Shown here: in pieces, positions 19,701 to 63,236 of the stretch
Layout: the number at the start of each line of letters is the position of its first letter
Position numbering within the stretch: position 1 is the first letter of the stretch
Source of the DNA: Xylographa opegraphella
Taxonomy: Eukaryota
Direction: 5' to 3'
DNA length: 64,000 bases
Assembly (NCBI GenBank): GCA_022813865.1
Contig: JALDZX010000007.1
Location: forward strand, 186,001-250,000
Program-made: the position numbers and the translations under genes
The notes under the pieces: model-generated
What the model saw: only the letters and a program-made list of their open reading frames with translations
Told to the model about the DNA's origin: nothing
Database searches by the model: none

Positions 19701-20027
19701 GTCTTTACTAGAGACGTGCTTCTTGCATGGTTTCTTCGCAGCAGGCGGCGTTTTTTCTTCCTTGCTAATCGGAGGTTGTATTTGGGATTCCTCTGTCGCT
19801 GTACCATCCACCTTGGTATTATTCATCTCAGCTGCCTCGTCCATTCTGGCAATCTTGTCAAGAAGTTCGAAGTCGGTCGCGCGCTGTCCTATTGGAGGAG
19901 TATCTGCAGGTGTAAAGTCCGGAGTGTTCAGGGTGTTGTCGGGATGGCTGGAGGTTTCAGAGGTTAGGGCAGTAGATATGGGCTTCCACGAAGAGGCGTT
20001 AGGTTTGCCTGCGAGAGGAATGGTCAT
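16762..20027 (-). CDS. Fungal AAA+ ATPase with charged low-complexity N-terminus
   Basis: Multi-exon, joining ORFs 19029-20027, 18442-18873, 18121-18381, 17460-18101 and 16762-17022. Walker A LHGNPGTGK/TLTAE, Walker B ILLLDEADVFL, FLTTNRVETFDDAFQSRIH, lid motif LNGRQIKN, plus ITFDLLWALF and VLGFAFSEKLW. Confidence 0.92.
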
Positions 20028-30306: not shown

Positions 30307-31166
30307 CTACGTCCCCTCCGCTTTCTTCCCCCCCGACAAATCCTCCGGCAACACTCTCCCTCCGACCACCACCTCCTCGGACCCAATCAGCACAAACACC
30401 ATGCGACACCACTCCGTCTCGCTCTTATTCCGCCACGCATGCATCGTCCCCCGCTGCACCACCACATCCCCGGGGCGCATCGTCCGCGTCTCCCCGCCGT
30501 CGAGCGTCAGATCCACCTCGCCGCTCACGACGATCCCGTAGTCGAGGCTCTGCGTCCGGTGCATCAGCGGCTCGGCTTCCTGGCCGGTTCCGTGGTTCGT
30601 GCTGACGCTCAGGGGGCCGATGTCGACGATGCGGCAGGTGCTGCCGTGGCGGACGACGAGCGGTGCGGTGGCGGAGTCGAGGGCGGCGTGGGCGTGTAGG
30701 TCGGTGTCGTGCGTGAAGGAGGGGGTGGGTGTGGTGGTGGTGTAGACGAGGTTCATGGCGATGTCTGGGGTTGGGGAGGGGGGTTTAACGGGGTATAATT
30801 TCGTGGGGGGTTGGAGAGGACGCGGATAGTATAAGGATGACGATAGAGATTGGGAGGAATTGAGGATGTAGTATTAAAGATTGACTTATACATTTGAGGG
30901 CAGAGCGAGCAATATGTGAAGTCAATGGAAGTATACTGATAGATTCAGGCAAAGGAAGCAAAGAATATCCTGGTTGGTACGAAAGCAGAGAATATATGAT
31001 TTCGAGAACAAGATGGATACGTACGCGGCGCCGTGACCTGCCAGGGGGTGGGGCCAGAGGAGGGGTGGAAGACGGCGAGGGCATCGGAATTGTGGGTGGT
31101 GAGGAGGCGGGACGGAGCGGGGAGGGGAGAGGTCTGCGAGGGGTCGCGGGGAGGATAGGAGGACAT
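30307..31166 (-). CDS. Cupin_2-domain protein
   Basis: Two exons (ATG 31166 MSSYPPRDP..LLTTHNSDALAVF; second exon starts near 30764). Cupin motifs MHRTQSLDYGIVVSGEVDLTLDGGE and PGDVVVQRGTMHAWRN..WCRMVFVL. Confidence 0.9.
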
Positions 31167-32747
31167 GTTCGGCGGACGGGTTGGGTGTTGGTATAATTGG
31201 GATTGATTGTTGATATTGTTAGGATGACAAGATGGAACTGAGGGTAAAGTTACTTCGACGTGTCTATTGGCAAAAGTTATAGTGCAGTTGAGGAATATCA
31301 GACACGACTTGCCGACCACGGGAGTGACATGCCGAGGTTCGCCTTGGTATTTGATGGATTTCTAGATTTAGACAATTACGTAATACACGGCTCTTGATTG
31401 CGGTCAATACAGGTGATTGGCATTACGAAGGCTCTCAAATCAATTATCAAATATCATTGATTGTGCAGCTTCAGGCGGGATGGCCAAGACCATCGCAACC
31501 AACCACCGCCCGTTTGATCCATAATCGTGTCTTCAGAATTTCCTTCTCTTATATATCGCTTCGAAGTCAGGAGCTCCTTATAGAGTGCTGAACTAATAGA
31601 GTCTCAACTCGAGATCCAGGGACGGCCTCATATTCAGCGCAGTTGTCGAAGGGACTGGACTTGGCAAAGTTGAAAACGTCACTGATCGTTTCAAAACGGT
31701 CGGTGATCAAAAGGATTTAGCTCCACTTAAGGAGTCGCGAAGAAGCCCCAGCAAGTGAAGTATATAGCATAAATCCCCCGAGCTTAATCAGGATTGGAAA
31801 ACGAAGCGCCAATAGAACGGTGAGGAGCAAACGTTGAAATCGAGACAATGAAGTCTCGTGGGATCTTGACATGTGAATTGACAAGGAGGTACGGAGCAGC
31901 AGGCTGATCGTAAGGTAGTGGAGTAAACCTCAGACAAGGAAGTATATTCAAGCTCGCAGTGTAAACATGAGAGACGAAGCACAAAGATACGATGAGGGAG
32001 AGCACTGAGCGTGGCAGGAAGTTGAGAATGACCGGCGCTTGCAACCTTGGATCAGGCCATCCATATGAGATCTTGAAGATAGAAGGTGGAGATGATTGAA
32101 ATCCTCAACACAATCCTTAGGAAAAACAATGTGATAAGTACACACGAATGATTTACCCTGTGGATATATGAACAGAAGAGCGAGTGTAATCGAGGAGAAC
32201 AGTGTGTGTAATTCGAACATACGCTATGGACATCCAAACGGAATTCTCCGCTGATATCACGTGACTATCCCTTCCTATCCTATCAGTGTTGCTAGGGCTC
32301 AACCTGATTATAAACAACGCAATCCCTCATTATTTGCAAACGAATCCTTCTTACGTCTTCTGATACTACAATCTCAAGTATCCTGTGATCAGATTGCACC
32401 CTACAACAAAAGCCACGATGACGTTTCGCCTCCACAATATCCAAGGTCAATACTTTCTTTTCGGCTAATAGCCGGCCCAAAGTGCCGAGCTTGGATATCT
32501 ATGGGCACACCCATCATGGACAGTGCAACTGCCAGCTATGGAGCCGCCAAACCTCACTTTTGTTTCAACCCGCCTGGCTGTCCCTAGCGCAATAGATGCC
32601 AATTGTGGGGGCAATCATGATGATCTGGGGCTTGGCTAGATCGTGTGGGGAATCGTGGGGCACGGCACATCAAAAGACGATGCGTTCCTCTATGGTTTCT
32701 GGTTATCTGATTTCTACAGACTCGGAATCATATACACTGAAATCACC

Positions 32748-34713
32748 ATGCCTTCAGCTACTCATGTTGCCTCCAAGTCCATCATATCTGCGCGCAGTGT
32801 GGACGATGTGCGGCCTCTGAAAGTCATCGGTATTGGTGCAGGTGTCTCAGGCATACTGGCTGCGATTCGTCTGCCTCGGAAATTGAAGAACTCCGAGCTA
32901 GTGATATACGATAAGAATGAGGAAGTGGGAGGTACATGGTTTGAGAACCGGTACCCTGGCTGTGCATGTGGTATGGTCTCTTGTCGACCTGATTGTGAAG
33001 AACTATACTTACACGCCCCTGGAACAGACATACCGGCTCATTGTTATCAATTATCTTTTGAGTCCAACCCTGCATGGAGCTCCTTTTATGCTAGAGCACC
33101 CGAGATTCTTGCATACTGGAAACGCGTTGCGGATAAATATGGCATAAGGAAGTACATGAAGCTGTCTCATAAGGCCATGCAGGCGCGGTGGGACGAAAGT
33201 ACCTCGAAATGGGTCGTAACACTCCAAAATATCACAACAGGAGAGGTATTCGAGGACACTGCGGATGCGCTGCTTACAGGAATAGGAGCCCTTAATGAGT
33301 AAGCTTTCATGTATTGAGTATAATTACCAGAACATCACTAATGATACTCGAAACAGATGGAAATGGCCAAGTATACCAGGGATAAAAGACTTTAAAGGCA
33401 AACTTCTTCACTCCGCCAGATGGGACGAATCATACGACTACAAAGTTTGTAGTTTTCCTCTCCAACAAACCAAGAAATCACTAACCACCGCTTAGGGTTC
33501 AAACGTTGCCGTAATCGGAGCTGGCTCCTCCGGAATTCAAATAGTACCCACTCTTCAGCCAGAGGTTAAGCGCCTTGATCATTATGTCAGAGGGAGGACA
33601 TGGATAGCAACGACTATAGCTGCAGATGAAGTGAAGAAAAGAAACGATACAGCCTCAAATTTCGATTTTACAAAGGACGAGATCGACGCTTGGCTGCGGG
33701 ATCCTACACTCTACTTGAGCTACAGGAAAAAGCTCGAAGCCGAGCTCCAGTCTGGTCATATAATCACCATGAAGGGCAGTGAAGCACAAAAGGAAGCACG
33801 GGCCTTCTTCACTCAGCTGATGAGAGACCGCCTGGCAAAGAAACCACAGGTTGCTGAGCACATGATCCCAGACTTTCCACCTCTATGCAAGCGGCTTACA
33901 CCAGGTCCTGGCTATCTCGAAGCACTGACAAAAGATAATGTCGACGTTGTGCCCACTGCAATAGAACGAATCACAGCTACAGGCATAATGACGACTGATG
34001 GAAAGCATCGTGAAGTGGACGCCATAATTTGTGCCACTGGATTTGATACTTCCTTTCAAAATCGCTTTCCAATCTACGGCATTGGTGGGGTTAAATTGGG
34101 TGAACGTTGGAAGTCTCGTGTGGACACTTATCTTAGCATGATGGTCGACGGCTTCCCCAACTTCTTCATGTCACTTGGGCCGAACTCCGGTGTAGGTGGT
34201 GGGAATCTTCTCATGCTTCTCGAGCGGATCGCCGAGTACACTGCGCAAGTACTGCACAAGATGCAGACAGAGAACATACTTACCGTCCAGCCAACTCACA
34301 AAGCTACACAGAACTTCACCGACTACTGTGACGCTTACTTTGCAGGTACAGTATTTAGCGAGGAGTGCAGCTCGTGGTATAAGGGCGGGACAGGCAAGAA
34401 TGGGCGAGTAGTGGCAATTTGGCCCGGAAGCAGTCTGCATGCTATCAAAACTCTAGAAAGGCCTAGGTGGGAGGACTTTGACTATACGTATGTGGATGGG
34501 AACGAGTTCGGATGGATAGGAGACGGGTGGAGTACGTTGGATAGACTGGATGATGCCGATAAGACTTACTACCTGGACAATCAGCAGATGATCCACCAAC
34601 CGCTCGAAGAGCGAACAGAGTTGGAGGGCCTGGCAGGTGATCTGGCAAGGACGGCGTTAAGTGAGGAGAACGGAAATAAAGGGAAGGAGGAGAACGGAAA
34701 TAAAGAGAAGTAG
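32748..34713 (+). CDS. FAD/NAD(P)H-dependent monooxygenase, Baeyer-Villiger (class B) type
   Basis: Three introns. FAD motif GAGVSG; GGTWFENRYPGCAC/DIP; BVMO fingerprint FKGKLLHSARWD; NADPH motif IGAGSSGIQ; KRLTPGPGYLEAL; DAIICATGFD; CSSWYK; WPGSSLH. Confidence 0.93.
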
Positions 34714-36493
34714 GCCGGCGCTGGCTTCACGGTAACCTTCACTTGTAAATTCGCCCCTGTGTGTATTTTTGATGTCGGTGTATATGCAGGAGAGATCGCA
34801 ACGCTGTGGATCTGCTACTCTGGATAACAGATGCTCGGGTTGTGTAGATAGGGCTATTACTTATTCAAGTACTTCGTACATTACGCTTGAATTGTGCGCG
34901 TAGCATAATCATGAGGATCGTCACATGGAATCACAATTTACCATGAAACCTCTGCGTTGATCTTCTTCTCATGATACCGCTCGTACGAGAGGACAATAGC
35001 CTTACTCAGTCTGTAGAAAAGTGATAGGTAGTACCGGGATCCTCTAAAGGATGGGCTTTAATTCCTTTTCGCCGGAAAGAAGAGCTGGCAGTTTCGTTTG
35101 AATCTACATAAATATAATATCGTTCGAGGCGATTTTATGTTTGTACAATCATCGCCCGGTTCCACCAAGGCGCGTTTGCGACTACCAGCATCACTCTTAC
35201 GAAACTTGGTCTAATCAATGAACGAAAACCTTGTCACAGTTCGTATGACACGACGCTGCCTGATCAAAATATGGAAGCTGTTCTGCACATCGTTCTTCAG
35301 CCTTTGCGGCGATGTTTTTGGATCGAGTACAGCCATATGGACAACACTCCTCCTATTTCTGGTTGCAGCTCACTCTTCACTACGACCCTGACTCGGGGAA
35401 AGCAGACTCACATTATGTCTTGTGACCGGTTTGCGGTTCGGGGAATTCTCTCCGTGTTTGGTGGATATTTTGGATCATCCTGAGCATGTATCTCTCTAGA
35501 TACCTTCACCAGCCAACCACGATATATTCTAGCTAGTATACTCTGCTCTTCCGGTGGCTTCTTGTTCGGGTGGCTCTTGTTCGGGTGTGGTCCACTGTAA
35601 CGAGTTAAGAAAATGTAGAATTTCCTTGACGTCTTCTCGAACGACGTGCGGGAACGGACGGCGCCGGCCGCTTTCACGTTGGCAATGGAGTAATTGGGCG
35701 GCATTGACAGGGTGAGCAGAACGGACGTCGCATGTGCTGCGGTTTAATATCCACTGCGTATATTCCTGATGTCCACCACCCACGAGATGCAGCAGATGCT
35801 GGCGACGAGGGCCAAGCGCGCGGGGCCGATAGTGTAGTGGACGAGGGAGAGGACGGGGGAGGCGGGACAGAGCGAAAGCTGCTGAGGGACTAGGTGAGTC
35901 GGTGCTGGTGAATTTGGTGCATGGGAGGAGCTGAGAGCTTTGGCTAAGGGACTTGAGTGATAGCCTGAGGTTCGGGATGTAATATTCCGAATTGTTGATT
36001 GCGCGGAACGGCATGCCATGATGCCAGTGGAGCTTGCACGAATATTCTACTCTGAGTTATACGGTTATTTTCTACGGATTCACAGGAGAGTTATTTGTAA
36101 TGTGTGATGTAGAAACGGTATTGACTATGAAATTAGAGCGAAATGACTTCCCAACAACGAAAAAGCTATACAAGCGACAAATTCATACATGAAGGATGGT
36201 CAGTCCTCGACGATGATGCAAAGAAACAAAGAATGGGCCATCGGTGGAGATGGTCAGTAACCCACCAACGTCAAACAAATGTCCACTGAGGAAGATGGTC
36301 AGTCCCCTCCAGTATCCAAGCGAAAGGTATCTGCTTTTCATGTAAACCAAGAACTCCGTTCCGATCTTATGACTCCGAACGCCGATTGTATGTGCGAAAC
36401 GAGTAGAGAATTCCCACAAAAAGGACGATGTATCCACCCAATCTCTATCCCACCCTCGCACAGCTCAAAGTATCGGCCAATTTTTTCTCCTCC

Positions 36494-39400
36494 TCATTGC
36501 GAAATGCTGCACAACAACTGAACCTGTGACTCGAGCGTGTCATGAACCAGCAACTCTTCCACCTTTACAGCGAAGCCTTCTTCGCGAAGCCTGAGGTGCA
36601 GCTGCACCACCATGATCAGATCACCTCCGAGCTCGAACAGTGAGGTGTCCAAGTTCAGCGACTTTTCGCGCGTGTTGCGCTCGTCACTAAAGAAAATCTC
36701 AAGCCATAACCGTTCGAGTACGAGCCGCGTTTTTGACAGTAATTTCTCGTCTGTGCACTCCCATTCGCCGACCGCGCTACCACAGCTACTGACAGGGGGG
36801 CTGATTTCTGGAAGCGGGATGATAGCTTCGGCGAAGTATGGTGTGGGGAGAGGTTGTTGCGGGCCAGACGAAAATGTTTCAATGGTGGAGCAGAGGAGCT
36901 CTAGGAGCTCGTCGGCGAGGCCAGATGGGATGACTTTGGGAGACCAGATGAGTGTGACTTCCATTTGCTCACCAGCGGGCTTGGAGTGAATGCCAATCAT
37001 GTCGAGCATCTCGAGTTCGGGTGCCACAGACCCTTGCTCGTAGTAGGTGTCCCCGAGCTGAAAGGGTTCATACTCGTCGATGTTCTGGTGCTGTACGATG
37101 GTATTGTAGAAACTGGAAGGCGACCAGTCGGTGCACTGTCGAATGATTTCACGTGAACCGAGGGTTTCGAAAGGTATGTTGTCGAGTTGCTGCTGTTGAA
37201 CTTGCTGGAGAAGATCGATGATCTTTTTGATTGGTTGCAAATTGACCCGTACCGGTACGACGTTGATACAGGGGCCTACAACATCGTCTCCACCAGCATT
37301 TCTTCCAGCTATAGTATGTCCGAATACAACGTCTGAAGAGCCAGAGATTTGGCTCAAGACATAGGCCCAGGCGGATTTAATGACTGTCGCGAAAGTGATC
37401 CCTTCGGAATTTAGAGGTGAGAAGGATATCGTACGGGTGGAGCGAATGACTGGACTGCGTGAACCTGCGACGAGCGAGGATTGTCGGTCCACAATGTCCA
37501 ACATTGCAGACCCAGAAAGAAGTTCGCGCCAATGAGCGTAGCATTCGTCGTTTTGTTGTAGCTTGGTCACGGCGGCAAATTCAGAGAAAGGATGTTGTTC
37601 CACGCTGGGCCGGCCTTCATAAGCTTCCTGGAGCGTTCCAATCAATTGCGGCCACGACAGTCCATCGTATAGTGCATGAGAAATGCGGACAATGATGCGG
37701 TGCTTTAGACTTTCTTTCTTCTTGACGACATAGAATTGGATCAATGGCTCTTCAAGTGTCAGGTCTTGCCGTAAGCCTGCGTGATAGATTTCATCATTCA
37801 CGGTAGCCAAGTCGCGATCAGTCTCGAAATAAGTCAACCTTGGCTGTACTCGCTTCAGGACCACTTGCCAAAACTTGGCCTGATGAAGGATGAAAACCGT
37901 TCGTAGAATCTCGATTCTATTTACCCATTCATTACATGCTTCTCTCAAACGTTCAAGATCCAGCGGGCCCGTACCCTCAAAATAGAAGTAGTTCAACATC
38001 CAGCGAGATTCTGTCATTGATGCAGCAAGTGCAATGTTCTGGATATCATTGGCCTCGAGGACGTTGATGATGTCTTCCATATTGACCTTGGCTCGGGGGG
38101 CAACAACATCTTGCAAGAAAGCTTGAACATTGGGAACGTCCAGTTGCGAAAATGGCTTGGGTAGCGCAACTGAATTACCAGGCTGTTGAACATAAGCTGC
38201 GACGCGAAGAGCAGCATCGGCAAGTCGTGGGTATTTGAACACGTCTGAAACAATCATCAAGAATCCGGCCTCCCTGGCGATGCTGACAAGCTTCATAGCC
38301 ACGATCGAGTCTCCGCCAAGCTGAAAGAAATTGTCGTCCAGTCCAACCGTGTCCGTAGCAATCCGTAAAGCTTGGGCCCATAGTGCTGCTAAAACCTTCT
38401 CCATGTCTGTCACTGGGGTCCGCCGTACACCATTTGCCAACGAATAATGCTCGAGCTGCTCTCTCGTGCCCGCGTCTAGTAGTCCGCGTAGGCCTTTCCT
38501 ATCCAGCTTTCCAGACACAGTGTATGGCATTCCTTCTACCAAGACGAACATAGAGGGAACCATATAGGGTGGAAGACTGGCGGGAAGTGCTGATTGTAAC
38601 TCGATAAGATCACTCTGCAGCATTTCGGACAGCGAAAGAAGAATACTGCCAGACTTGCCCGAACCCAGCTTTCCTTTATCGTACTGGAAGAATGCGGCCA
38701 GGGCTTTCTTTCCTCCCCGTGCAACTTGCTGAATGACCTCGACGGCAACATCTTGCCATTCAGGTCTTCGGCACTTTATCTGGAATTCAACTTCACCCGC
38801 TTCAATCCTTAATCCGTTCATCTTCATTTGCGAATCCCGTCGACCAAGAATTGATATCGTTCCATCCATGTTGTACTTGGCAAGGTCACCAGTTCTGTAT
38901 ACTCGCTGTCCGTGGACAGATCCACCGCACATTTCCAACCATGCAGGACTCTCAATGAATGCAGCAGCAGTTTTTACCTCGTCTCCAAGATAGCCGCGGG
39001 ATATGATCGGGCCTTCGATAAGCAGTTCACCGACGCACCCGATGGGGGTCAGACGGCTTGGATCATCAGATTCAGAGATCCAGAGACGAGAGCCGAGGCT
39101 TCGTCCAATTGTGGCAATATTCGTGCTTGGCGTAAAATTTGGATAGCATGCGCAATTGACGGAGGCTTCCGAGGGGCCATAGACGTTGATAAGGTTGATT
39201 TTGTGCGACCAAGAGGCAACCACTACTTCCGTCATTTTTTCTCCACCACAAGCAACAGCTTTCAGGCTCGGAATATTATCGGGGTTTAAGAGCCCGAGAA
39301 CGGTTGGGGTGAAATGAGCAAACTCGACCTTCATCGCGTCCATTGCACTCCCAAGATCATTCATTCTATCCTCATCAGATGGAATGCAAACAACGCCTCC

Positions 39401-42400
39401 GTGCGCGAGGGTGCCAAAGATTTCCATGATGCAGACATCGAATGTGAAAGCAGCGAATTGGAGGACTCGCAAACCTTGCACGATACCAAATGCTTCCGCC
39501 TGGGCTCTGACGCTCGTACAGATGGCGCGATGCTCAAGAATTGGGAACTTGGGCTTTCCGGTACTACCACTGGTACTGATTAGGTATGCTGGACAACTGG
39601 GATCCACAATCATTGTAGCCAGAGGCTTCAACGGCGGCGGGAAGTAGTTTCCAGGTCCGACAGCTACCACTGCTTGTGGTAGGCTGGCGAACATCCGGGC
39701 ATGTTTCGATGCGGCCACAACAAGATGAGCTGATGCGTCTGATATCTGATCTTCAAGCCGGGTAATAGAATGTGACGGATTGAGAGATAGAAAAGCTCCA
39801 CCGGCCTTTAAGACCGATAGCATGACCGCTGGAACCCATACACACTTATCGAAGCACAAAGCCACGACAACATTGGGTCCTACACCCAGAGTTCTGAGAT
39901 GGATGGCCAACGTATCTGAGAAGGCATCCAGCTGTTTGTAGGTGAATTGTCCATCCCACGAAAGAACTGCATCTGCATCTGGTGTTTTAAGGGCTTGCGC
40001 ATGTATCATATCGTGCATGCATATATTGAGTGTTTCCGGGTATTTCGGATTCCAAATCTTCAATTGATCTCGATCACTAGGTCCAAGCATCTCTATGTCT
40101 TTAAGATCAAGATCGGTAGACTGCTCGTTCAACTGTCGAAGAGTAGTGTCGAAGTGCGAGAGTATCCACATTATCTGCTCTTTAGAAATAACAGAGTCGT
40201 CGTAATGAGCCACTACTTCAATTTGGTTGGGTCCAGGCTCGCATTGGACAATCAATGCGTAATTATGAATATCGTCCTCATTGGTCCGCAAGGCTGTGCT
40301 GTTTGTGTTTGTAACATCAGTTGTTGAAGGCAAGATGATGAGCAAATTCTTGAAGTCGCAAGTGTTTGCCACAGATCCGCCCAAGCGGCGAATGTTTGGT
40401 AGACCCACTGTCTCGAAAGGCTCCATTTGTATTGACTGTTCTTGAACATTCTCTAAGAACTTGACCACGGAGTTGGTTTGCTCTTGCTCGAGAGAAACTT
40501 GAAATGGTACAAGAAATATTGCAGGATCGGCTAGATCTTCCCCAGTGACTTTGAGGCCAAAGAAAACATCCTTCGAATCAGACCAACGTCCAACAACGTG
40601 TGACCATGCACTTCGGACGATAGTAGTGCTAGAGATATTGGATGTCACTTCGTGGACTAATGATACAGTAAGTCGTTCGGTCTCATAAGCTTGTGGCTGA
40701 TATGTTTTCAAAGGTGACTGAGGAAAGCTAGTAGGTGCTGTTCCTGGAAACCGCGATTTCCAGAATATATCAGCTTCTGGTTCGAAACAATTGGTACTTG
40801 TAGGAAGTGTAGGATTAGAATTTGTGGATATCTGTTGGAAATGACTGTGGTCGCGGAGAAGCTTCAAGTCATTGATTGGCGAATCAGAATTCTCGGAGAT
40901 CGACTTGAGTGCCATTCGGAAGGTGTCCATCACGCCAGCAGCCTGCTGAGCAGACATATTCATGTCCCAGTAGATGAGTGTCAGCTCTACTTTTTCAGTA
41001 CCCGCCATCACATTAATAGCAACATCCCACTCAGTAGGATGAACCATTCCGACAATTTCGAGAGAGAGTTTCTGATCACTAGCAGAGGCCGGCACTGTTT
41101 GGAAAGACATTGCAGTGTTGAAGAGCGCGTTTCCGGATATTCCGAGACCACGCTTGATATCCGCCAGAGACGCGTGCTGATGTGGCAAGGCGTTTAAATA
41201 ATCGTTCTGCATTTGCTTGACGATGTCGGTCGGCATTTTCCCGTCCAGGTCAAGACGGCAGACGAGAAGATTGATGAACGGGCCAAGAGTCTCATCTGCA
41301 CCTTCAAGAGGAATGTCACGACCGGAGGTAAGATATCCAAAATTGACATTGTCCAATCCAGTATATGCACGTAGAACAAGGCCCCATGTGGCTTGAAGTA
41401 GATTGGCAAGTGACACCTCATACTTTCGGCAGATTCCTTGGAGGTCGAAGTCCTTTGCAAGATCTATTGTCATGAATTTTGAAATCCGGAGAAGTTCATC
41501 GCCAGATCCTTCAAGAAGAGGTGGAAAGCAGCATGGCGAAACACCCTCAAGATAGGTGTTCCAGTATTCTATTGCAGTGTGATCGGGTCGATCTTGTAAG
41601 TAAGCAATGTATTTACTGTAAAGGGGAGCTCGAGTCTTTGGTAGGCAGCTTTCATAGGCAAGAATGAGCTCATTCTCTAGGAAACCCAGGGCGGCGCCAT
41701 CAGAAAGAGCATGACTGATGTCCACTTGTAAGAACACCCTTCCATTTGTCTCGCACAAAGAAATTTGATGCGGAGGTTGTGAGAGACTTCTCTGCATCGC
41801 AGGCTGATTCTTCAGGAACGCAACAGCATCTGAGCCATTGTACTGGAGATAGTTTACGTCAACCGTGAAGGCTTTCATCACGAGCTGAGCAAAATGGCCA
41901 TCTCCTGTAGCGTTCTGAATAAAGATCGTTCTCAAGATAGGATGGCGATCTACCACTTCTTGCCACGCCGTCCGGAGTAATACTTTGCTGACCGGTCCTT
42001 CTGAGCTTCGTACCTCTGAGACTACACGAATATCGTATGCACCATGATCCTTTGCTTGGCTAAGCAATATACCTTCCTGCATTGGCGAACAGGAATAAAT
42101 ATCTTCAATGTTAGATTCTGGAACACCAATCTCAAGAATGACAAGCTTGATCAGACTTGACAAGCCAGTGTAATCTACTGGCAAAAGAGGGAAGTCGCTC
42201 AGCGTAAAGTGTTTTTGGGCCGAGTTCAACAACTTTACAGCAGGCTGGAAAGACTCTTCGAAATTGCCTATCCAGCGATTGATCTTATCTTGATGATAAC
42301 TGAAGTAGTTGAAGGTGAAAGAGACTTGAAGCTTCCTATCACTCACGACAGCAGCAACATCAAAAAGAGAAAGAAGTCTCATACTGGGACCAATATCTCC

Positions 42401-51400: not shown

Positions 51401-52770
51401 GTTAAAAAGGAGGCATGTTCGACGACACAGCCCTTCGGGATACCCGTCGAGCCAGAGGTGAAGATTAGATAGAGGATGTTATCCGGTCTTACCCCCGTGA
51501 CAGGAGTGATAGGCGCCTTGTTATTTGAAGGTAAGCCTGCAACGCTTTCCGCATCTATCGCGAAAACGCCAGCTGTTCCCTGCCAAAGGGCACAATGCCT
51601 TCGTGATGTTAGTATCAGCTTCGCCCTTACCCGGGTAACAATCTCTGCCATTCGAGCTTTAGGTTGCTTCGGATCCACATTGACAATAGCACCACCAGCT
51701 TTGATAACGGCCATAATAGCAACGATGGCCCATAACGACTTCTCAAAACACAATGGCACAATAGTGTCTGGCCCGATCCCAAGACCGATCAAATGGTATG
51801 CCAGACGTGTTGAGATCTCGCTGAGAGCGGCATATGATAAAGAGCCGTCCCATGAGCTGATAGCCTCAGCTTCCGGACGAGCTTTCGCTTGTCTCTCGAA
51901 AAGATCGTGGACACATAGAGACACTGTTTCTGGGTACTCCTGGTTCCATGCCCAAATCTGCTCGACGTGGCTTGGACTCATGAAATTGGTTCCGCCAAGA
52001 AGCATGGAGGAGTTTTGCACAATCTCTGAAAGAACCTGTTCAAAGCTTGTGGCGAGGTTGAGCGCTTGTTTAGTGGGAAGAAAGGAAGGCTTATAGCTAA
52101 GTGCAGCTTCAATGTCTTTGCCGACTTCTCTGATCCTGATGGAGATGAATTTGTCCTGAAAACTCAGATTAGCTTATGACCGGAGCTAATCATATTTAGA
52201 CGGAATTATAACCGTTGGAAATCTTACTTGATCCCGGATCAGTTTCAACAGCGGCGCAACCGGCATGCCGTTAACGCCCTGGAAAACCACTGCTGTGTTA
52301 AAATCATGTTGGTAATGACCAATTACCGATGACCGCATATTAGCATGGTTCTCGAAGCTCAACTTAGTTTCCCGCTCGACATCTTTGAGGACACTCTCAA
52401 GCTCTCTGATGCTCTCCAGCTCAACGCGGCAGACTCCTTCTCTTTGCGTACTGGCATCGCTGGTTATGACAAGGAAACCAACCTTATCAGTACCCAGATA
52501 CCGTGCAAGAACAAGAGCCCAAGCAGTGCTGAAGAGTGTAGGGATAGATACGTCATGCTGGGCGCAGATGTAATTAAGGACTCGAGCAGAGCGAAAGGAG
52601 CCAAGATCTAACGAAGTAAGTTGCTGTACGGACCGCTGTCTGGGGGAATATGGTTCTATTATTCCGTCTGTCAGTAAGGGGAAAAGACATGTGCCAAACT
52701 CATCCTTTGTTTCCTGTTTCGGGGACAGTTGTGTTGAAGTATATGGAACAGCATCAAATGATGGTGCCAT
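36494..52770 (-). CDS. Multimodular non-ribosomal peptide synthetase, ~5,384 aa: half-C, A1-T-C, A2-T-C, A3-T-E*-C, half-C, A4-T-CT-T*
   Basis: Exons 52770-52228, 52155-48862, 48811-36494 with phase-0 GT-AG introns. Four A domains (TSGSTGxPK, YGPxE, LYKTGDL-type, A10 Lys). GGDS carrier motifs at 50191, 46865, 43613, 38306. C motifs NHALIDG (49531), HHACYDG (46235), SHALSDG (~41700), SHALYDG (37661). E-like region ~43453-42183. Terminal GGDL at 36617. Confidence 0.97.
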
Positions 52771-54629: not shown

Positions 54630-57600
54630 ATGTCGACAATATTGGCGACGCGCAGCTCGCCATGCACCATTGACGTAGAAGGCCAGTTTGGACCCAAAGT
54701 GGACGACGCATGTCTAGATGGATTCGATTTTACGTTACTCTTCGAGGAAAGCATATTGTCCATCTCTATCTCCGCTTTGTTGCTGTCTGCTGTTCCTCTA
54801 CGCATCGCATATCTCAGCCGGAAGCCGCAGAAAGCTGTTGGTGGAGTCCTTCATTTGGCGAAGCTGGTGAGAGATGTCCTACTAGCGACTGACATTAGTG
54901 CTAACTGGTGCTATTCCTAGCTTTCTTGGGCAGCTTTGACGTGCTTGTACATTGTGCTGTTAGCGATATATGCATTGCCTATCGCCCCGGGAACACAATC
55001 AACTATTCCAGCGGTGGTTCTCGCCTTTGCCTGCTCCGCCAGCGCTTTCTTTGTCTCACATTTAGAGCACATGCGCTCGATACAACCGTCGAAAATTCTC
55101 GAGTGCTATCTCTTCTTCTCGACTTTGTTAGACATTGCCAGGACGAGGACGTTATGGGCGATACACGGAGGCCGTGTGGCTGCGATATTATTCTCAACAA
55201 TTCTTGGCATGAGATGTCTCTTGCTTCTCCTTGAGTCAGCAGAAAAAAGAGGGCTGTTGAAACCGGCGTACCAGGGTTCTGCACTGGAAAGCACGAGTAA
55301 TATGTTTAGTCGGGGGTTGTTTTGGTGGTTAAATCCTCAGCTCTTGAAGGGATATTCCACCTTAATGTCGATGGCCGACCTTTCCGCGATCGACACAAAA
55401 TTGACTGGAAAAGGCGCAGGAGAAGACGGTTTGCAGCAACGCTGGAAAATCATCAAGAGCCGGGGGAACGGGAATTCCCTACTTCGGGCATGTCTGGGAC
55501 ATTATAAATGGGAGATTGGTGCTGGTATCATACCTCGCGCCTTACAAATCGGCTTTCTATTCGCGCAACCTTTCCTCATTCGCACAACAATCGCACTTAT
55601 GAGTGCTCCCGACAGCCTCTACACAACCTACGTAGGATATGCTATTATTGGATCCTATGCAATAGTATATGTTGGCATTGCCGTTTCCACGGTTCTAGCA
55701 AGGCATAAGGCGTTCCGAGTTATCACCATGATGCGAGATAGTATTGTCAGCATGATATATGACAAGACGATGAAGCTGCCGTTTTCAGGTCTAGACGGGA
55801 ACGGCCCCATTACCCTTATGAGCGCCGATATCGAACGTCTCGCCAGTGGGTTACGATACATGCACGATTCTTGGGCCAGCGTTATCGAGATATCTATTGC
55901 ACTATATCTGCTCTATAAGGAGCTAGGTATAGCAGGTATCGCACCAATTGTCATTGCTATGGCTTGTGCAGTCTTCGCCGTCATACTATCAGCCATGTCC
56001 CGCAACCGCCAGAAGATCTGGCTTGAGGCTATAGAAGCAAGGGTTGACGCAACTTCAAAGATGCTTGGATCGATGAAGGGCGTGAAGATGAGAGGTTTGA
56101 CGACAAAACTGTTCAGTATCATTCAAGGCATGAAAGAGGACGAGATAAAGAAGTCACAAAAATTTCGAGAGCTATTGATAGCAGCTGCTGCGGTAGCCTA
56201 TAGCAATGGCGCTATCGCTCCTGTTATATCATTTGCCATCTATTCTGTTGGTGGCTCCGGAGTTTTGACTACGGAAAAGGCTTTCTATGCACTTACCCTC
56301 TTTGCTCTCTTGAACGAACCTATTGGCACCTTGGTTGAGGCCTTGACTGGATTGGCTACTGCAAGAGGCTCCTTGGATAGAATTGACAAATTTTTAAAGA
56401 GAGACCCACACGTGGATGGGCGAGCGTCTGCTACGTCGACATATGATAGCGACTCTGAAGTACAACCGGACGCAACCGAGGACGCAGGAAGTGTGGAGAT
56501 AAAAAGATTGAACATTAGCGAGCAGACACTGCCAATATTATCATTCTCGGAGAAGACTCATGTTGGACTTGAAGCTCAAGTTATGTCTAACACTACAGTA
56601 TACGGCATCGAATCAGTAACCGAAATTGTGGCTGCTCGGCACCGGACTGCTGGATGGGTGCCGAATAGCGTCCCTGTTTTGCAAAATCTTAACTTTGACG
56701 TCCAACCTTCCACGTTCACGGTCGTCCTCGGCCCTACGGGTTCTGGTAAATCAACGCTCTTGACCGCTCTCCTCGGGGAAGTGCCAAAGTATAATGGATA
56801 CCTATACGTTTCTACTCCGCACGTTGCATACTGTGCACAAGTTCCTTGGCTTATCAACACGACTCTGAAGCAGAACATTCTTGGCGAATCTCTCTTTGAG
56901 CTTGACTGGTACCGGAAAGTGATTCGTGCTTGTGGACTAGAACAGGATTTCAGTATGCTTGCGTCGGGCGATCATTGCCTGGTCGGAAGTAACGGATCAA
57001 CGCTCAGTGGAGGACAAAAGCAGCGAGTGGTCTGTTTGAATCGTATCTCAGGACGTATTTGACACATATACTGACTATGAACCAGGCTCTTGCCAGAGCT
57101 GTATATTCCCGGAAGCTGACCGTAATTCTTGACGATCCGCTCAGTGGATTGGACCCCTCAACAGAAGAATGGGTAGTCTCCCATTTATTCGGAAGCAGTG
57201 GTCTTTTTCGGGAGATGGGAACAACAGTAATAATGGCATCGAATTCAGGTAAGCCAACAGTCGATATTGTGGCGTCAAAACTTACTGAATATCCAAAAGT
57301 GCAACATCTCTCCATCGCAGATCATGTCATCGTTCTTGGTACTAACGGTAGAATAACCCAGCAAGGTTCTTTCGAGGAATTGAACTCCGTTGAAGGATAC
57401 GTGCAAAGTCTGTCATTGGAAAAGCAGGAGCCATCTGCAATCCTAAAGCACGACATTGAGACCGTCCCTCTAATAATGCCTGATGCTCTTATTAATCTTT
57501 CTCCGGCGGACGGTGATCGGCGTACGGGAGATATGAGTCTTTATACATACTACATTCAGACTGTTGGAATCCCTCAATCTATCTTTTTCGTCGGGTTGCT

Positions 57601-59809
57601 ATCTTTATATGTTTTCTTTCTCTCTTTCCCAGGTACGTCGACTATTTGACAGCCACCAACACTAGGAGTAAAGCGGCTGATCTAGCTATGTATTTAGCTA
57701 TTTGGGTACAATGGTGGGCTGCAGCAAACGATATCGAGCCGAATTACAAGTTGGGCATGTATCTTGGTGTCTATGCTTGTCTTGCAGCCGGTGCAATGAT
57801 CTCTGTCGTGATCTCCTGCTGGTAAGTAGTCGAATGACCCGATCCGCCGAATCTCCTATTACTCGAACTCCACTAACGTATCTTAGGCATCTCATGGTGA
57901 ATATTGTTTCGAAGGCCGCCAGAGTGCTTCATACCAGGCTTCTTTCATCTGTGTTAAAGTGAGAACCTCCTGCCGGTATCATCAAAGAAGAACTACACTA
58001 AGATCTGTCTCAATAGTGCACCGATGTCCTTCTTCACGACGACGGATCGGGGCATCACCACCAACCGGTAAAATATCCGCAGCACGTATGTTTAAAATGA
58101 TATTAATGCATTTATAAAATAGGTTCACCCAAGACTTACAGCTCATCGACATGGAGCTACCGATATCGCTGCTCAATACCGTACTTGGTCGGTTTCTGAG
58201 ACTTCCTTCCTTATGAAAAATGCTGACCTGTACAGCTTCTCTCACGTGTTTGGCGCAGTTGATCATTATATCATATTCCACACGGTATCTAGCCGCCATC
58301 GTTCCTCTTTGTCTTGGCGTTTTCTATATGATCCAGCGATTCTATCTCCACACATCCCGTCAACTTCGGTTCATGGAAATTGAGATCAAGTCTCCTCTCT
58401 TCTCAAATTTTCTAGAAACCCTCAGCGGATTGGTCACGATACGAGCTTTTGGATGGGAGGATGCATATCGGCGCCGCAACCTGGAACTCGTGAAGACGTC
58501 ACAAAAACCTTTCTACCTTCTTTTCTGTGTTCAACGATGGCTCGAGCTGGTTGTGAGCTTAGCGGTTGCTGGCTTCGCAGTCTTGCTGGTTGGAGTGGCA
58601 GTTGCCACGAGGGGAAGTATCAGCGCTGGTTTCATAGGTGTCGCATTGATCAACATTGTCACGTTCAGTGAGAACATACAGTCGCTCATTATGCACTGGA
58701 CAGTCTTGGAGACATCTCTGGGAGCAGTGTCGAGAATCAGATCATTTACCAGTACGACTGAATCAGAGAACCTGCCTTCAGAAAACACCACACCTCCCAG
58801 TGACTGGCCAAGTGTAGGGGACATCCAATTTCGCGGCGTCTCTGCATCCTACACGAAAGACACATCACGACCAGCCTTGAAAGATATATCTATCTCGATC
58901 GCTGGCGGCCAGAAAGTTGGAATTTGCGGGAGAAGTGGGAGCGGGAAAAGTACCCTCGTTGCTACACTCTTGAGGATGTTGGACGTTGACAGTGGCTCAA
59001 TATGGGTTGATGATATCGACTTATCAACAGTACCGCGTCAAGAAGGACGATCAAGAATGATCGTTATGCCACAGGATCCCTACTTCTTTACCGGTTCGGT
59101 CCGACTGAACCTCGACCCAAATTGTGAGCTCTCCGACGCTATCATCATCAAGGCTTTGACAAAGACGCAAATCTGGGACACAATTCAGAAGCAAGGCGGA
59201 CTCGATGCAATGGTGACGGATGATTTCCTCTCCCATGGACAGCGGCAATTGCTATGTCTATCCGGTGCTATCCTACATGAAGGAAAAAAGATTTTCATTC
59301 TGGACGAAGCAACTAGCGGGTACGTGACACCTTCGATCCAGTTACAACGTTTTATCTGCTAAACCTTCTACAGCGTTGACAAGGTTTCCGATGAGCTCAT
59401 GCAACGACTTATCCGCTCCGAGTTCCAAGATCATACTGTGATAGCCATTGCCCATCGGCTGGACACAATCTTGGACTTTGACCAAGTGATTGTCATGGAT
59501 AAGGGTGCCGTCTTGGAAACTGGAAATCCCATGACTTTGCTGAGAGATGGCAAAACGAATGGGGAGCCGTCCCAATTCGCGCTATTGTATGAAAGCTTAG
59601 ACCGTTCAATGGTATCGTCGATGATGCCGACGAGTCCCAAGGGGGGAAAGCGGAAGTCGACAGCACATGCGACGCCGGGCCCTTCAAGCCGACGGACGAG
59701 CGTGACGCGGAGCATCTTGAGCAACCGTATGAGCTGGTTTCTGGAGGATGATGGGGATGTTGAGAAGAACGACCGGTGGTCGGGCCTGTGGCGCGACTTC
59801 TACTTCTGA
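54630..59809 (+). CDS. ABC transporter, ABCC/MRP type (full length, two TMD-NBD halves with N-terminal extension)
   Basis: Multi-exon, including short exons near 58017-58067 and 58123-58187. N-terminal FGP..C..FDFTLLFEESILS. NBD1: GPTGSGKST, LSGGQKQR, VILDDP. NBD2: GRSGSGKST, LSHGQRQL, FILDEATS, IAIAHRL. Confidence 0.95.
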
Positions 59810-61881
59810 GACTCCCTAGGATTGGATCGATATTTCCACAACATCCTCGTTCCCATTTCGGCGTTTATTTGGCATCAGACACGATAACAATGTCAGTAAA
59901 AAAAGCAATGCATTCCGTTCAGAAGAACGATTATACAGATTACTATCTACACAATTACTAGTTTTCAAAATATGTTTCTTGTGTTGAGTTAAACATAATA
60001 TGGTTCATGAATCCTTGTGTTGTTTGAGCGTAAACCCGGGTACGAAGTCATGACATTCAGAACCCGATGCCAGCTATAACGCCCCGTGAAGGTCGCCAGA
60101 GGTTGAGCCTGGGCTCACCGAACACTGGGAGTTCTGCCAGCCACGTCCAGAGAAGAGTTGTAAGCTTAGAGGGGTGATTAAGGGACCTCTGTCGGGAATC
60201 AGAGGCATTGACTGACCTCTGTTTGGCAGCCTGGGGCTTGTAGTCCAAAACAAGCAAGATCACCTTCACGTGACCGGGACATCGCCCGTTGGAGTCTCCC
60301 ATTACATACTTCGGCCCGAACTCGCTCAAGTGAAGTTGGAGTCCGGCCTGGGAGGCCGGACAACTGCAACGTTTCGTGTGGCCATACCGTGGGTGGGAAT
60401 GCGGGGTCATGCAACGGAACATCCGAGTCACAATTCGGGGGACTGGCAGTCGACACATTCGGCTCTAAATGAGCACACCATTTCCTTCCGGACGAAGTTT
60501 GGAAAGTATATCCCCAGCTCGACGGACGCCTTACAGTCTTCCGCAGGAAACCGTAGGCAGCGGGGAAGTCCCATACATTGTGGCTGTGCTTTAGCAGGGT
60601 ACACGCAACGTGGTAGCGAGTTGCTCAATAGCGCCTAGCACTGCTTGCCAATGTGATCACTCCCAGCGCAACACGTGTGAGATGCCGTTTTGTGTATACA
60701 CGAATGAGGGAGTCGCACATGATGGTTGATGTTGGGATTCCCGAATGCGGGCATGCCTCACGGGACAAGGGTCTGCCTGGTCGCTGCAATTGGAAGGGGT
60801 GTGTAGCCCCGCATTTATCCTAGCTGCCACGCCGAGCCCCTACTAGCTTAACGGATACCGCTTGCCCATACGGCTAAGGATGGCCAGTGTAATATTACGA
60901 GAACCAAGACAAGTTGGAACCGCAGTTTCCAATGCTGCACTGTGCCATCCAACTGCATCGTTGCGTGACAGCCAGCCACACTGCCCGTCCCTGCCGTCCG
61001 ATGTCGTCGTGGATGGCGTGATAGATGTTCTAGATGCCTCCACTCTGACTAGAGATCATAGTTCTTTCTCCGGACGACCCATGGGTGCTGCTCGCAGAGC
61101 GTTCCGCGCCGCCAAGGTACCTCCTGGTGCTCTCACCCACCACCTCTTTGCAGTGGACGTCCGTCCGAACCTTATCACTGGGCTATCGGACACGAGCGTA
61201 CACGTGGCTGGGCCCATAATTGTAGCTAACGCACTGCACTCGCTCCTCGGGAAATCCACCATGTTCAATCCCTAGTAAGGTTGCATTGCATCCCTGATTT
61301 GCGGAACCAAATTATACTTCTGATGTAGTCTGCAGTTATGACTTTTGCCCCCACTGCGTCTCCGCTCTCGTCCTTCCGCTAACCGCTCCTGATGCAAGTG
61401 TCAAAATCGGAGGGCCAGGCCTCTCCCACCCTCTCTTACCCTTTTTTCGTGCCTTCCTTCTCGAGAATGAAATTGCAAACAAGGCAAACATGATATTTCG
61501 GCCTCGCGGCGCAGCCTTAGGCAACCGTACCTAGCCGTGCTACTACTCTGTACAGTTGACGAGATGCAATTTGACGCCGAATGTAGCAGTGGACTCTGCA
61601 CGTATACTGAGGATGTCAATGGATCCGAAGGGCAGTGACTTTCTGTTAGGGATACCACTTAGTTCGTGCTCTCGATATAGAGGCTGCGGTCCGGCATATT
61701 GTTAAAAAACTTCAGGGTGGCTTTCTCGTCGTTTGTTGATCTCATTTACGTCTCAGTTCCGCTGTAATATCATAATTTGTATCCACCAAAAGCTCAACTT
61801 TTCATCATTTCCTTTCATTGCGAGATTTTCCTCTGCCCACTACATCCCTTCAATTAAACCCGGAATTTTTCCACCGCCATC

Positions 61882-63236
61882 ATGAGTTTCACCCCAGCGC
61901 TCGCCTCCGACATCGACTGGACCACTCTCGACCTCACCGTCCGCGATCTCGGCAACGGCCACATCGAATCCCGCTACAGCCCCCAAACAGGCATCTGGTC
62001 CGTGCCCAAACTGATCAACGACCCCTATCTCCGCGTACACGGCCTCGCCCCCGCTCTCAACTACGGGCAGCAAGCCTTCGAAGGACTGAAAGCGCACCGC
62101 TCGCCCGCCGACGAGATCCTCCTCTTCCGCCCCGGCAAGCACGCCTCCCGCATGCGGCACTCCGTCTCTGTAGTCAGCATCCCCGACATCCCGGAGGCGC
62201 ACTTCCTCCTCTGCGTCCGCCTGGCCGTCTCCCTTAACGCCGCCTTCGTGCCGCCCCACCGCTCCGGCGGCGCTCTGTACGTCCGCCCCGTCGTCTTCGG
62301 CTCCAGCGGCCACTTGGGCCTCAACCCACCCACCGAGTACACCTTCTGCGTCTACGTCCACCCCTTCTCCAGCTACCACGGCGCCGCGCCCATTGACGCC
62401 CTCGTCCTCGAGGACTTCGACCGCGCCGCCCCGCGCGGCACCGGCAACGCCAAGCTGGGCGGCAACTACGCCCCCGTCATGCGCTGGGCGGCCCGGGCGC
62501 GCGCCGACGGCTTCCCCATCACCCTGCACCTCGACAGCCAGACGCGCGCGCAGATCGACGAGTTCTCGACCTCCGGCTTCCTCGGCGTGATGAAGGCGGA
62601 CGACGGGGCCGTCACGTTGGTGCTTCCCGATAGCGATAATGTGATCAAGAGTATCACGTCCGACAGCTGCGTCGCGATCGCCAAGTCGCTCGGGTGGAAG
62701 GTGGAGATGCGCGCGGTATGTCCTCTCCTTCAACCCCCCCTTGCTAAGCTACACGCTATCTCTACTATATACCGACACCGTCTGATCCGCTAAAGATCCC
62801 CTACACCTCCCTCCCCCTCTTCGCCGAAGTTTTCGCCGCCGGCACCGCCGCCGCCCTCGTGCCCATCCGCTCCATCACCTGCCGCTCCCACGACCAGACG
62901 TTCACCTACCCCGCCACCGGCGCCACGGGCGGGCCGTGCTTCCAGCAGCTGTACGACTGCTTGAAGGGCGTCCAGGCCGGTCGGCTGCCTGATACCTACG
63001 GCTGGTGCGACACCGTGAAGGCGCCGAGCGCGTATGTATCTGATATCAAGACCGTGCTGGGCGGGAGGGAAGTGGAGGGCGCGGTGAAAGCGGAGAAAGC
63101 GAAAGGGGCGGCGAAGGAGAAGGAGAGGGGTTTCGGCAAGCAAAGCTACGTGCTGGGCGTGCTTTCGCTGCTGGTCGTGGGGCTGCCGTGGGCGAAGGCG
63201 TGGCTGGGCGGGATGGGTAGTTTTGGCACCGTGTAG
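61882..63236 (+). CDS. Branched-chain amino acid aminotransferase (PLP fold IV)
   Basis: Exons 61882-62715 and 62796-63236. Motifs LNYGQQAFEGLKA, LFRP, LYVRP, FDRAAPRGTGNAKLGGNYAP (PLP lysine), IDEFSTSGF, SITSDS, EVFAAGTAA. Confidence 0.95.

What the first reader, a model, noticed from the sequence alone, without database searches (positions are those of the whole stretch)
30307..63236. Candidate uncharacterised NRPS cluster: cupin + BVMO + four-A-domain NRPS + ABCC exporter + branched-chain aminotransferase
Seen: these five genes follow each other directly after the housekeeping GYF gene. Established: a terminal CT domain releases fungal NRPS products by macrocyclisation; cluster-encoded aminotransferases supply non-proteinogenic residues in the HC-toxin (ToxF), apicidin (Aps4) and aspercryptin pathways. 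Inference: the cluster makes a cyclic tetrapeptide with at least one unusual residue, exported by the ABCC pump and possibly oxidised by the BVMO/cupin. Domain order and gene set differ from HTS1/APS1, which have E in module 1 and an MFS pump, so the product may be new. The cluster may extend past the right edge.
Basis: partly seen in the sequence, partly recalled or inferred. Interest (0 to 1): 0.8.

Follow-up and report, generated by a model that had tools for sequence, protein, structure and literature searches.

The report
Lichen-fungus lipopeptide cluster with shortened NRPS
A lichen-forming fungus carries an intact, uncharacterised gene cluster that most likely builds a small ring-shaped peptide containing a fatty amino acid, using an assembly-line enzyme that evolution cut down from six modules to four; the type of pathway is known, the product is not.

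Summary
The five genes are real and intact, but the cluster was framed wrongly. It continues about 24 kb past the window with a P450, fatty acid synthase alpha, a thioesterase, RTA1 and fatty acid synthase beta; a separate housekeeping FAS pair lies elsewhere. FAS, P450 and the aminotransferase form the cassette that supplies alpha-amino fatty acids in the aspercryptin, apicidin and HC-toxin pathways. Module 1 has a code one residue from AtnA module 6. The 5,384-aa NRPS (C0-A-T-C-A-T-C-A-T-E0-C-C½-A-T-CT-T0) has orthologues in six Xylographa species. Domain trees make it a derivative of the orphan six-module family of A. flavus cluster 13 and P. rubens: modules 4 and 5 are deleted, leaving half a condensation domain before the last A domain, and the epimerase has lost its catalytic motifs. 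The BVMO and cupin are probably neighbours rather than members. Likely product: a cyclic lipo-tetrapeptide without an enzyme-made D-residue, so not of the HC-toxin/apicidin build. No expression or chemical evidence exists. New variant of a known kind.

The parts
36494..52770 (-). Four-module NRPS, 5,384 aa: C0-A1-T1-C1-A2-T2-C2-A3-T3-E0-C3-C½-A4-T4-CT-T0; two introns (52227-52156, 48861-48812)
50329..51957 (-). A1, code DVLFAGGVAK; predicted to load the long-chain alpha-amino acid
   Evidence: same code in 5 of 7 colinear relatives (Thozetella and Monosporascus differ), one residue from AtnA A6 (DVLFIGGVAK), shared clade 1.0 / 99.6
42179..43471 (-). Degenerate epimerase domain E0 (HQLIVDQ for HHLVVDA; EGHGRE and TVGWFT motifs altered)
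   Evidence: mean identity among six Xylographa orthologues 74%, lowest of all domains
40079..40786 (-). C-terminal lobe only of a condensation domain (no HHxxxDG), between C3 and A4; relic of the ancestral penultimate C domain
   Evidence: profile positions 182-423 of 425; tree 0.962 with the penultimate C of Monosporascus and Thozetella
38429..40054 (-). A4, code DVMHAGVVNK; descends from the last A domain of the longer relatives but with a changed pocket; substrate unassigned
   Evidence: (94% mean identity in the genus)
36497..38071 (-). Terminal CT domain (SHALYDG) followed by a T-like domain without the Ser (GGDL)
54630..59809 (+). ABCC transporter, 10 exons, 1,557 aa, divergent from the NRPS
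61882..63236 (+). Branched-chain aminotransferase, cluster type (ToxF/Apf4/AtnJ-like), 424 aa, with a hydrophobic C-terminal tail
63237..64000 (.). Intergenic stretch up to the window edge. The cluster continues beyond it on G000:C209: P450 250068-251939 (-), FAS alpha 254500-259603 (+, no PPT domain), 4HBT_2 thioesterase 260393-261318 (-), RTA1 about 262146-263357 (+), FAS beta 267818 to about 274447 (+); then elongation factor 3, the probable right border
32748..34713 (+). Type I Baeyer-Villiger-type flavin monooxygenase, 599 aa; probably a flanking gene
30307..31166 (-). Cupin_2 protein, about 199 aa, single match in the genome; probably a flanking gene, synteny not tested
35619..35851 (.). 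Broken remnant (stop codon, pieces on both strands) of a sugar-porter MFS gene that X. vitiligo has between BVMO and NRPS

Best explanation
The cluster runs from the NRPS to FAS beta (about 52 kb) and makes a cyclic lipo-tetrapeptide. Step 1 (inferred by analogy with apicidin and aspercryptin): the dedicated FAS pair makes a medium-chain fatty acid, released by the thioesterase; the P450 oxidises it towards the 2-oxo acid and the aminotransferase converts that to an alpha-amino fatty acid. Step 2 (code and tree shown, substrate inferred): A1 loads it. Step 3 (domains shown intact): A2, A3 and A4 add three further residues of unassigned identity; E0 is inactive, so residue 3 stays L. Step 4 (inferred): C3 joins the tripeptide to the residue on T4, while the retained C-lobe only preserves the native C-A4 interface. 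Step 5 (CT identity shown, chemistry inferred): CT releases the product by macrocyclisation; the ABCC pump exports it, possibly helped by RTA1. The NRPS arose by internal deletion of modules 4-5 from the six-module family found in Aspergillus section Flavi, Penicillium, Tricladium and Thozetella.
For: Gene set and open frames. Two FAS pairs in the genome, 2 matches for each subunit; only the alpha subunit on C182 has the ACPS/PPT domain. A. flavus cluster 13 lists NRPS, ankyrin protein, aminotransferase, P450, and AFLA_038640 is FAS alpha: the same order as here. The aminotransferase lies within 4 accession numbers of the longer NRPS in 9 of 12 comparable species. It groups with those cluster enzymes (0.77-0.91), apart from its own paralogue, which groups with Trapelia (0.97). 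One close P450 homologue is a gene model fused to an 'apf5' FAS alpha. A1 code and clade with AtnA A6. A1-A3, C1, C3 and CT each group with the positionally matching domain of the relatives, C2 with that of Monosporascus and Thozetella, and the half C with the penultimate C. A4, T4 and CT are the most conserved domains among six orthologues (92-96%), so the module beyond the scar is under selection. Pathway precedent: passages of PMC4109984, PMC3729494, PMC8262921.
Against: No expression, metabolite or enzyme data. A2-A4 substrates cannot be called. Support for A4 with the last A domains is uneven: 0.993, unresolved when a long-branch degenerate domain attaches there, 80 SH-aLRT. Closing an all-L tetrapeptide ring is strained (general knowledge). 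3 of 12 species did not show aminotransferase-NRPS adjacency (Tricladium, A. hancockii, one A. parasiticus strain). Synteny of P450, FAS, thioesterase, RTA1 and ABCC in other Xylographa species was not read directly. 0 of 55 metagenome loci with thioesterase relatives (36-51% identity) carried FAS, NRPS or aminotransferase. X. pallens has only one locus tag between BVMO and aminotransferase, so it may lack the NRPS or the pump. No pathway transcription factor was found. That AtnA A6 loads the C10-C12 amino acid is recalled from the original aspercryptin papers, which I did not read.
Confidence: 0.6

Rival explanations
1. Same cassette and A1 substrate, but the product is not a head-to-tail cyclotetrapeptide: CT closes the ring through a side chain or an oxidised lipid tail, releases a linear peptide, or joins two tetrapeptides.
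For: E0 is degenerate, so no turn-inducing D-residue is made; the A4 pocket differs strongly from the ancestral last module (DVMHAGVVNK against DIACVSAVWK); CT identity to TqaA shows the domain class, not the reaction.
Against: CT is intact and 95.5% conserved, and macrocyclisation is the usual outcome of fungal CT domains (general knowledge); A4 or A2 could load a proline-like or glycine residue that allows the turn.
Confidence: 0.2
2. One reading: BVMO and cupin belong to the pathway and oxidise the lipid residue, as Apf9/Aps9 do for apicidin, giving an HDAC-inhibitor-like side chain.
For: The BVMO lies within 1-2 locus tags of the NRPS in 5 of 5 Xylographa species with both tags; it is intact; a flavin monooxygenase does this job in apicidin F (PMC4109984 passages).
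Against: The BVMO follows lichen-fungus relatedness outside the genus; a sugar porter separates it from the NRPS in X. vitiligo, with a remnant here; A. flavus cluster 13 lists no such genes; neighbourhood among congeners is expected anyway.
Confidence: 0.12
3. The half C domain blocks transfer from T3 to T4, so the enzyme works non-linearly (modules 1-3 and A4-T4-CT as semi-independent units), or the gene is slowly decaying.
For: About 250 extra residues lie between C3 and A4; the half C (80%) and E0 (74%) evolve faster than the other domains (84-96%); X. pallens may have lost a core gene.
Against: Full-length open orthologues of 5,379-5,384 aa in six species with identical A1, A2 and A4 codes; the same full-C plus C-lobe junction exists in one unrelated Xylariaceae NRPS.
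Confidence: 0.08

Closest known systems
Orphan six-module family: A. flavus cluster 13 (AFLA_038600 / AO090011000043) and P. rubens Pc21g10790-type NRPS
   Same: Colinear C0-A1-T-C-A2-T-C-A3-T-E-C and terminal A-T-CT-T0 (32-57% per domain); identical A1 code; in A. flavus aminotransferase, P450 and FAS alpha follow in the same order. No product listed for Pc21g10790 (tables in PMC8788816 and PMC6262359). The link to AFLA_038600 rests on the shared 2,975-aa length and strain; the link to Pc21g10790 rests on architecture only.
   Different: Modules 4-5 deleted, half C relic, inactive E, different A2-A4 codes; ABCC instead of an ankyrin gene between NRPS and aminotransferase.
Aspercryptin (atn) cluster of A. 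nidulans
   Same: NRPS plus two FAS genes and aminotransferases for C8-C12 alpha-amino acids (PMC12918583, PMC8262921 passages); A1 groups with AtnA A6. P450, ABC, RTA1 and thioesterase genes in atn are recalled, not seen in a call.
   Different: AtnA has six modules, an intact E and a terminal reductase (linear product, recalled); per-domain identity only 29-46% and not colinear; here CT release and one aminotransferase.
HC-toxin (TOX2) and apicidin (APS/APF) clusters
   Same: Four-module NRPS plus FAS and branched-chain aminotransferase (both), and P450 (apicidin), for an aliphatic amino acid (PMC3729494, PMC4109984 passages).
   Different: Those have a working epimerase for D-Pro/D-Pip, an MFS pump and a bZIP/bANK regulator; here E is degenerate, the pump is ABCC, no such regulator was found, and no four-module HTS1/APS1 was recognised among the 120 best hits (many hits are unnamed, and one 6,475-aa hit at 35% carries the label 'HC-toxin synthetase').
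Thozetella (P0012) and Monosporascus (P0030) NRPSs, uncharacterised
   Same: Sister lineage for A2, A3, C1, C2, C3 and the half C.
   Different: Six and five modules, no E domain at all, complete penultimate C.

Membership tests
FAS + aminotransferase + P450 lipo-amino-acid NRPS clusters (aspercryptin/apicidin/HC-toxin type) | Dedicated FAS gene(s) beside the NRPS, separate from the housekeeping pair | tested here: met
FAS + aminotransferase + P450 lipo-amino-acid NRPS clusters (aspercryptin/apicidin/HC-toxin type) | Cluster-type branched-chain aminotransferase and P450 | tested here: met
FAS + aminotransferase + P450 lipo-amino-acid NRPS clusters (aspercryptin/apicidin/HC-toxin type) | An A domain for the alpha-amino fatty acid | tested here: met
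   A1 code and clade with AtnA A6; the A6 substrate is recalled; no enzyme assay
FAS + aminotransferase + P450 lipo-amino-acid NRPS clusters (aspercryptin/apicidin/HC-toxin type) | Product shown to contain the fatty amino acid; genes co-expressed | not testable with these tools
   needs chemistry and RNA data
Aspercryptin (AtnA) synthetases | Six modules with a terminal reductase domain | tested here: not met
   four modules, CT terminus
HC-toxin/apicidin synthetases (HTS1/APS1) | Four modules | tested here: met
HC-toxin/apicidin synthetases (HTS1/APS1) | Working epimerase (RTVGWFT motif) for a D-imino acid | tested here: not met
   the only E domain is in module 3 and lacks the motifs (motif from PMC4109984)
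HC-toxin/apicidin synthetases (HTS1/APS1) | MFS efflux pump and bZIP/bANK regulator in the cluster | tested here: not met
   ABCC pump; no regulator among the scanned frames; small or intron-rich genes could be missed
HC-toxin/apicidin synthetases (HTS1/APS1) | Direct sequence orthology to HTS1/APS1 | not tested
   neither sequence was identified among the proteins returned
A. flavus cluster 13 / Pc21g10790-type family | Position-matched orthology of modules 1-3 and the terminal module | tested here: met
   (A4 support moderate)
A. flavus cluster 13 / Pc21g10790-type family | Six thiolation steps and an intact E in module 3 | tested here: not met
   hence a derivative, not a same-product member
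Fungal CT-terminated NRPS | Terminal C domain of the TqaA CT class | tested here: met

The most novel reading that the evidence does not exclude
The enzyme is a working natural module deletion: two modules were excised with the break inside a condensation domain, the C-lobe stayed on A4 as a scaffold, the epimerase was switched off and the A4 pocket was re-tuned, turning a six-module lipopeptide line into one that makes a genus-wide cyclic lipo-tetrapeptide of a lichen-forming fungus. It would be a ready natural test of whether a fungal NRPS can pass its chain across a full-C plus C-lobe junction; cutting inside C domains worked in engineered bacterial NRPSs but not in fungal ones (PMC8788816 passage).
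Probability: 0.4. Interest if true: 0.68.

Novelty: new variant of a known kind. Interest (0 to 1): 0.47.

Why it matters
It places an orphan lipopeptide family of Aspergillus and Penicillium in a lichen-forming genus, where the enzyme is conserved across six species, and predicts a peptide product to look for there. It gives a traceable case of NRPS shortening (six, five-plus-relic, five and four modules within one family) with the junction preserved, which bears on how fungal assembly lines can be cut. Solving either this product or that of the six-module relatives would largely explain the other. The pathway logic itself is established, which caps the interest.

Tried and rejected
Single-sequence AlphaFold model of C3-half C-start of A4: mean pLDDT 32.6, unusable. 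Thioesterase scan of metagenome contigs: 0 of 55 loci had FAS, NRPS, aminotransferase, RTA1, ABCC, BVMO or cupin; 6 had a distant P450 at 24%; the hits are distant, so this is weak. ESM Atlas on the small frame at 35532-36008: no usable hit; the region later proved to hold a transporter remnant. ESM Atlas on the cupin: generic Cupin_2 only. Repeat scan of 29700-64000: nothing beyond T-domain codons, one short tandem duplication and chance pairs. Rejected: gene fusion of a three-module NRPS with a separate one-module NRPS, because the half C groups with penultimate LCL-type C domains and not with N-terminal C0 pieces. Rejected: recent duplication within the gene (A domains only 36-39% alike). 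Rejected: GC content as a sign of transfer, since it swings from 0.44 to 0.67 across the window, also upstream of the cluster. My recalled locus tag AO090003000945 for the A. oryzae orthologue was wrong. Substrate calls for A2-A4 were considered and left open.
Full report
Setting. The window is G000:C209:186001-250000 in a 24.7-Mb fungal assembly. The NRPS is identical to a database protein that its source names Xylographa opegraphella MMC26_001508, on a contig of the same length, 656,032 bases. Xylographa is a lichen-forming genus (own knowledge).

Observation. All five genes are present and open. The NRPS spliced at two GT..AG introns equals P0003, 5,384 aa. The ABCC model has 10 exons and no internal stop. 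The BVMO has the type I fingerprints (motifs recalled). The aminotransferase is 424 aa. The cupin has one intron in the model found.

The cluster is larger than the finding. The next 25 kb of C209 hold a P450 (250068-251939, 529 aa), FAS alpha (254500-259603, 1,648 aa), a 4HBT_2 thioesterase (260393-261318), RTA1 (about 262146-263357) and FAS beta (267818 to about 274447; last intron read by eye), then elongation factor 3. Each FAS subunit family has 2 matches in the genome. The C182 alpha subunit carries the ACPS/PPT domain; the cluster alpha subunit ends before it. The cluster pair is therefore the dedicated one. FAS, P450 and a branched-chain aminotransferase are the genes proposed to make aliphatic alpha-amino acids for apicidin F (PMC4109984, passages); FAS and aminotransferase for HC-toxin (PMC3729494, passages) and for aspercryptins (PMC8262921, passages; PMC12918583, passages).

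NRPS anatomy. The order is C0-A1-T1-C1-A2-T2-C2-A3-T3-E0-C3-C½-A4-T4-CT-T0. All 4 A domains keep the catalytic Lys and 4 of the 5 T-like domains the Ser. CT is closest to TqaA CT (E 7.7e-34). The E domain reads HQLIVDQ where 7 of 7 comparison E domains printed read HHL(V/I)xD, and lacks EGHGRE and TVGWFT; the full motif set was printed for 2 of the 6 Xylographa proteins, the first motif for 3. It is the fastest-evolving domain, 74% mean identity among six orthologues against 84-96% for the intact domains. Between C3 and A4 lies a 236-aa piece that matches profile positions 182-423 of 425 and starts after the HHxxxDG column: a C-terminal lobe with no active site and no T domain before it.

Origin. 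One search scored 1,615 candidates and listed 120. After 7 Xylographa-level hits (83-100%), the best were 5,400-7,200-aa NRPSs at 42-49% local identity. In A. flavus, A. aculeatus, Penicillium and Tricladium these read C0-A-T-C-A-T-C-A-T-E-C-(A or relic)-T-C-A-T-C-A-T-CT. That matches the table entry for P. rubens Pc21g10790, which has no product (PMC8788816 and PMC6262359, table passages), and A. flavus AFLA_038600, cluster 13 (PMC4073137, passage and one supplement part). In a tree of 95 A domains from 19 chosen proteins, A1, A2 and A3 group with the same positions in these relatives (0.995-1.0) and A4 with their last A (0.993). That last grouping was unresolved in a 67-domain tree where a long-branch degenerate domain attached beside it, and had 80 SH-aLRT after I dropped that domain and four unrelated proteins (45 domains). 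The half C groups with the penultimate C of Monosporascus and Thozetella (0.962) and of the other relatives (0.908; 14 proteins). The simplest history is one internal deletion from after C3 to the middle of the penultimate C. Of 124 proteins scanned, 11 have a full C directly followed by a C-lobe: all 10 Xylographa-level ones and one Xylariaceae NRPS whose A domains form a separate clade. The junction has thus arisen at least twice.

Substrates. A1 reads DVLFAGGVAK in all six Xylographa proteins and in A. flavus, A. aculeatus, two Penicillium species and Tricladium (Thozetella and Monosporascus differ); AtnA A6 reads DVLFIGGVAK and shares a clade with it (AtnA identified as P0605). That A6 loads the C10-C12 amino acid is recalled from the original aspercryptin papers, which I did not read. 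A2 (DASFLGAICK), A3 (DLAI[T/I]AGSWK) and A4 (DVMHAGVVNK) differ from the relatives and cannot be assigned; His and Asn in the A4 pocket hint at a polar residue (inference). A4, T4 and CT are the most conserved domains in the genus (94, 92, 96%).

Synteny from locus tags. Full-length NRPS orthologues were seen in 6 of the 8 Xylographa species that appeared. NRPS and aminotransferase are two tags apart in 5 of 5 species with both; the gene between is the ABCC here and presumed so elsewhere. In X. pallens only one tag separates BVMO and aminotransferase, and no NRPS was seen for it or for X. trunciseda. In the longer-NRPS group the aminotransferase lies within 4 numbers of the NRPS in 9 of 12 comparable species; the misses are Tricladium, A. 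hancockii and one A. parasiticus strain. In A. flavus the order continues P450, FAS alpha. In a tree of 119 aminotransferases (hits under 320 aa dropped) the cluster enzyme joins the NRPS-adjacent ones (0.77, 0.91), while its paralogue on C192 joins Trapelia (0.97).

Left border. The BVMO is within 1-2 tags of the NRPS in 5 of 5 species with both, which fits membership or plain neighbourhood. The X. vitiligo BVMO model is fused to a downstream sugar porter (Sugar_tr E 9e-77), whose broken remnant lies at 35,619-35,851 here. A. flavus cluster 13 lists no BVMO or cupin. Cupin synteny was not tested.

Mechanism and odds. Fatty acid to 2-oxo acid to alpha-amino fatty acid, loaded by A1; three more residues; no epimerisation; C3 condenses onto T4 across the C-lobe; CT cyclises; ABCC exports (0.6 as a whole; about 0.85 for the lipid amino acid cassette alone). 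Rivals: another release mode (0.2), BVMO and cupin as tailoring members (0.12), non-linear use or decay (0.08). Nothing here shows expression or a product.

Literature. Ten searches. 'Xylographa' with 'NRPS' gave 2 papers, seen as listings only. Locus-tag searches led to tables or primer lists without a product in the papers I opened (PMC8788816, PMC6262359, PMC4073137, PMC4647614); other listed papers were not opened. Passages only were also read in PMC3689640, PMC5381763, PMC6156440 (plus a supplement term search and file list), PMC7071103, PMC10967133 and PMC9786134. Most subscription chemistry journals are not held and MIBiG could not be queried, so a published product of the six-module family cannot be excluded.

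Verdict. A real, intact, widely conserved (within the genus) and apparently uncharacterised cluster of the known lipo-amino-acid NRPS kind, with a new module set and a traceable internal deletion. New variant of a known kind; interest 0.47.

Noticed in passing
window 63100-63236 (aminotransferase C-terminus): All six Xylographa cluster aminotransferases end in a conserved hydrophobic tail absent from the paralogue and from the Penicillium enzymes; possibly a membrane anchor that places it near the P450.
   Followed up: partly
window 35619-35851: Sugar-porter remnant with pieces on both strands, suggesting a small inversion during decay; extra locus tags at this position in X. bjoerkii and X. 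carneopallida may be the intact gene.
   Followed up: partly
P0095 (Xylariaceae sp. FL0662B), residues 3295-3962: Independent full-C plus C-lobe junction after an E-like domain, in a six-module NRPS whose last three A domains share one code.
   Followed up: partly
P0011, P0014, P0021 (Tricladium, A. flavus, A. aculeatus), fourth module: A4 is reduced to its C-terminal 120-150 residues while T4 and C4 remain; in Penicillium A4 is full length but degenerate. Module 4 decays repeatedly in this family.
   Followed up: partly
X. pallens locus tags MMC27_001013-001015: Only one gene between BVMO and aminotransferase, where other species have two or three: loss or a fused model.
   Followed up: no
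window 1-64000 and L001: GC swings between 0.44 and 0.67 by gene and even within the P450, whose last exon is GC-rich while its 5' exons are not.
   Followed up: no
L002:3400-7750: 4.4 kb between RTA1 and FAS beta with no Pfam match in the three longest frames scanned; a small regulator gene could be hidden.
   Followed up: partly
window 3285-23435: Upstream frames include DUF7082, DUF3431, a zinc-binding dehydrogenase and a fungal AAA ATPase; several long frames (9490-10839, 14118-15887, 19029-20088) had no Pfam match.
   Followed up: no
L004:4339-7515: Beyond elongation factor 3 lie a GroES-like dehydrogenase and a frame resembling the C-terminal part of a fungal transcription factor (resemblance recalled; no Pfam match).
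   Followed up: no
window 34663-34710: 24-nt tandem duplication at the 3' end of the BVMO, adding eight residues relative to most orthologues.
   Followed up: no
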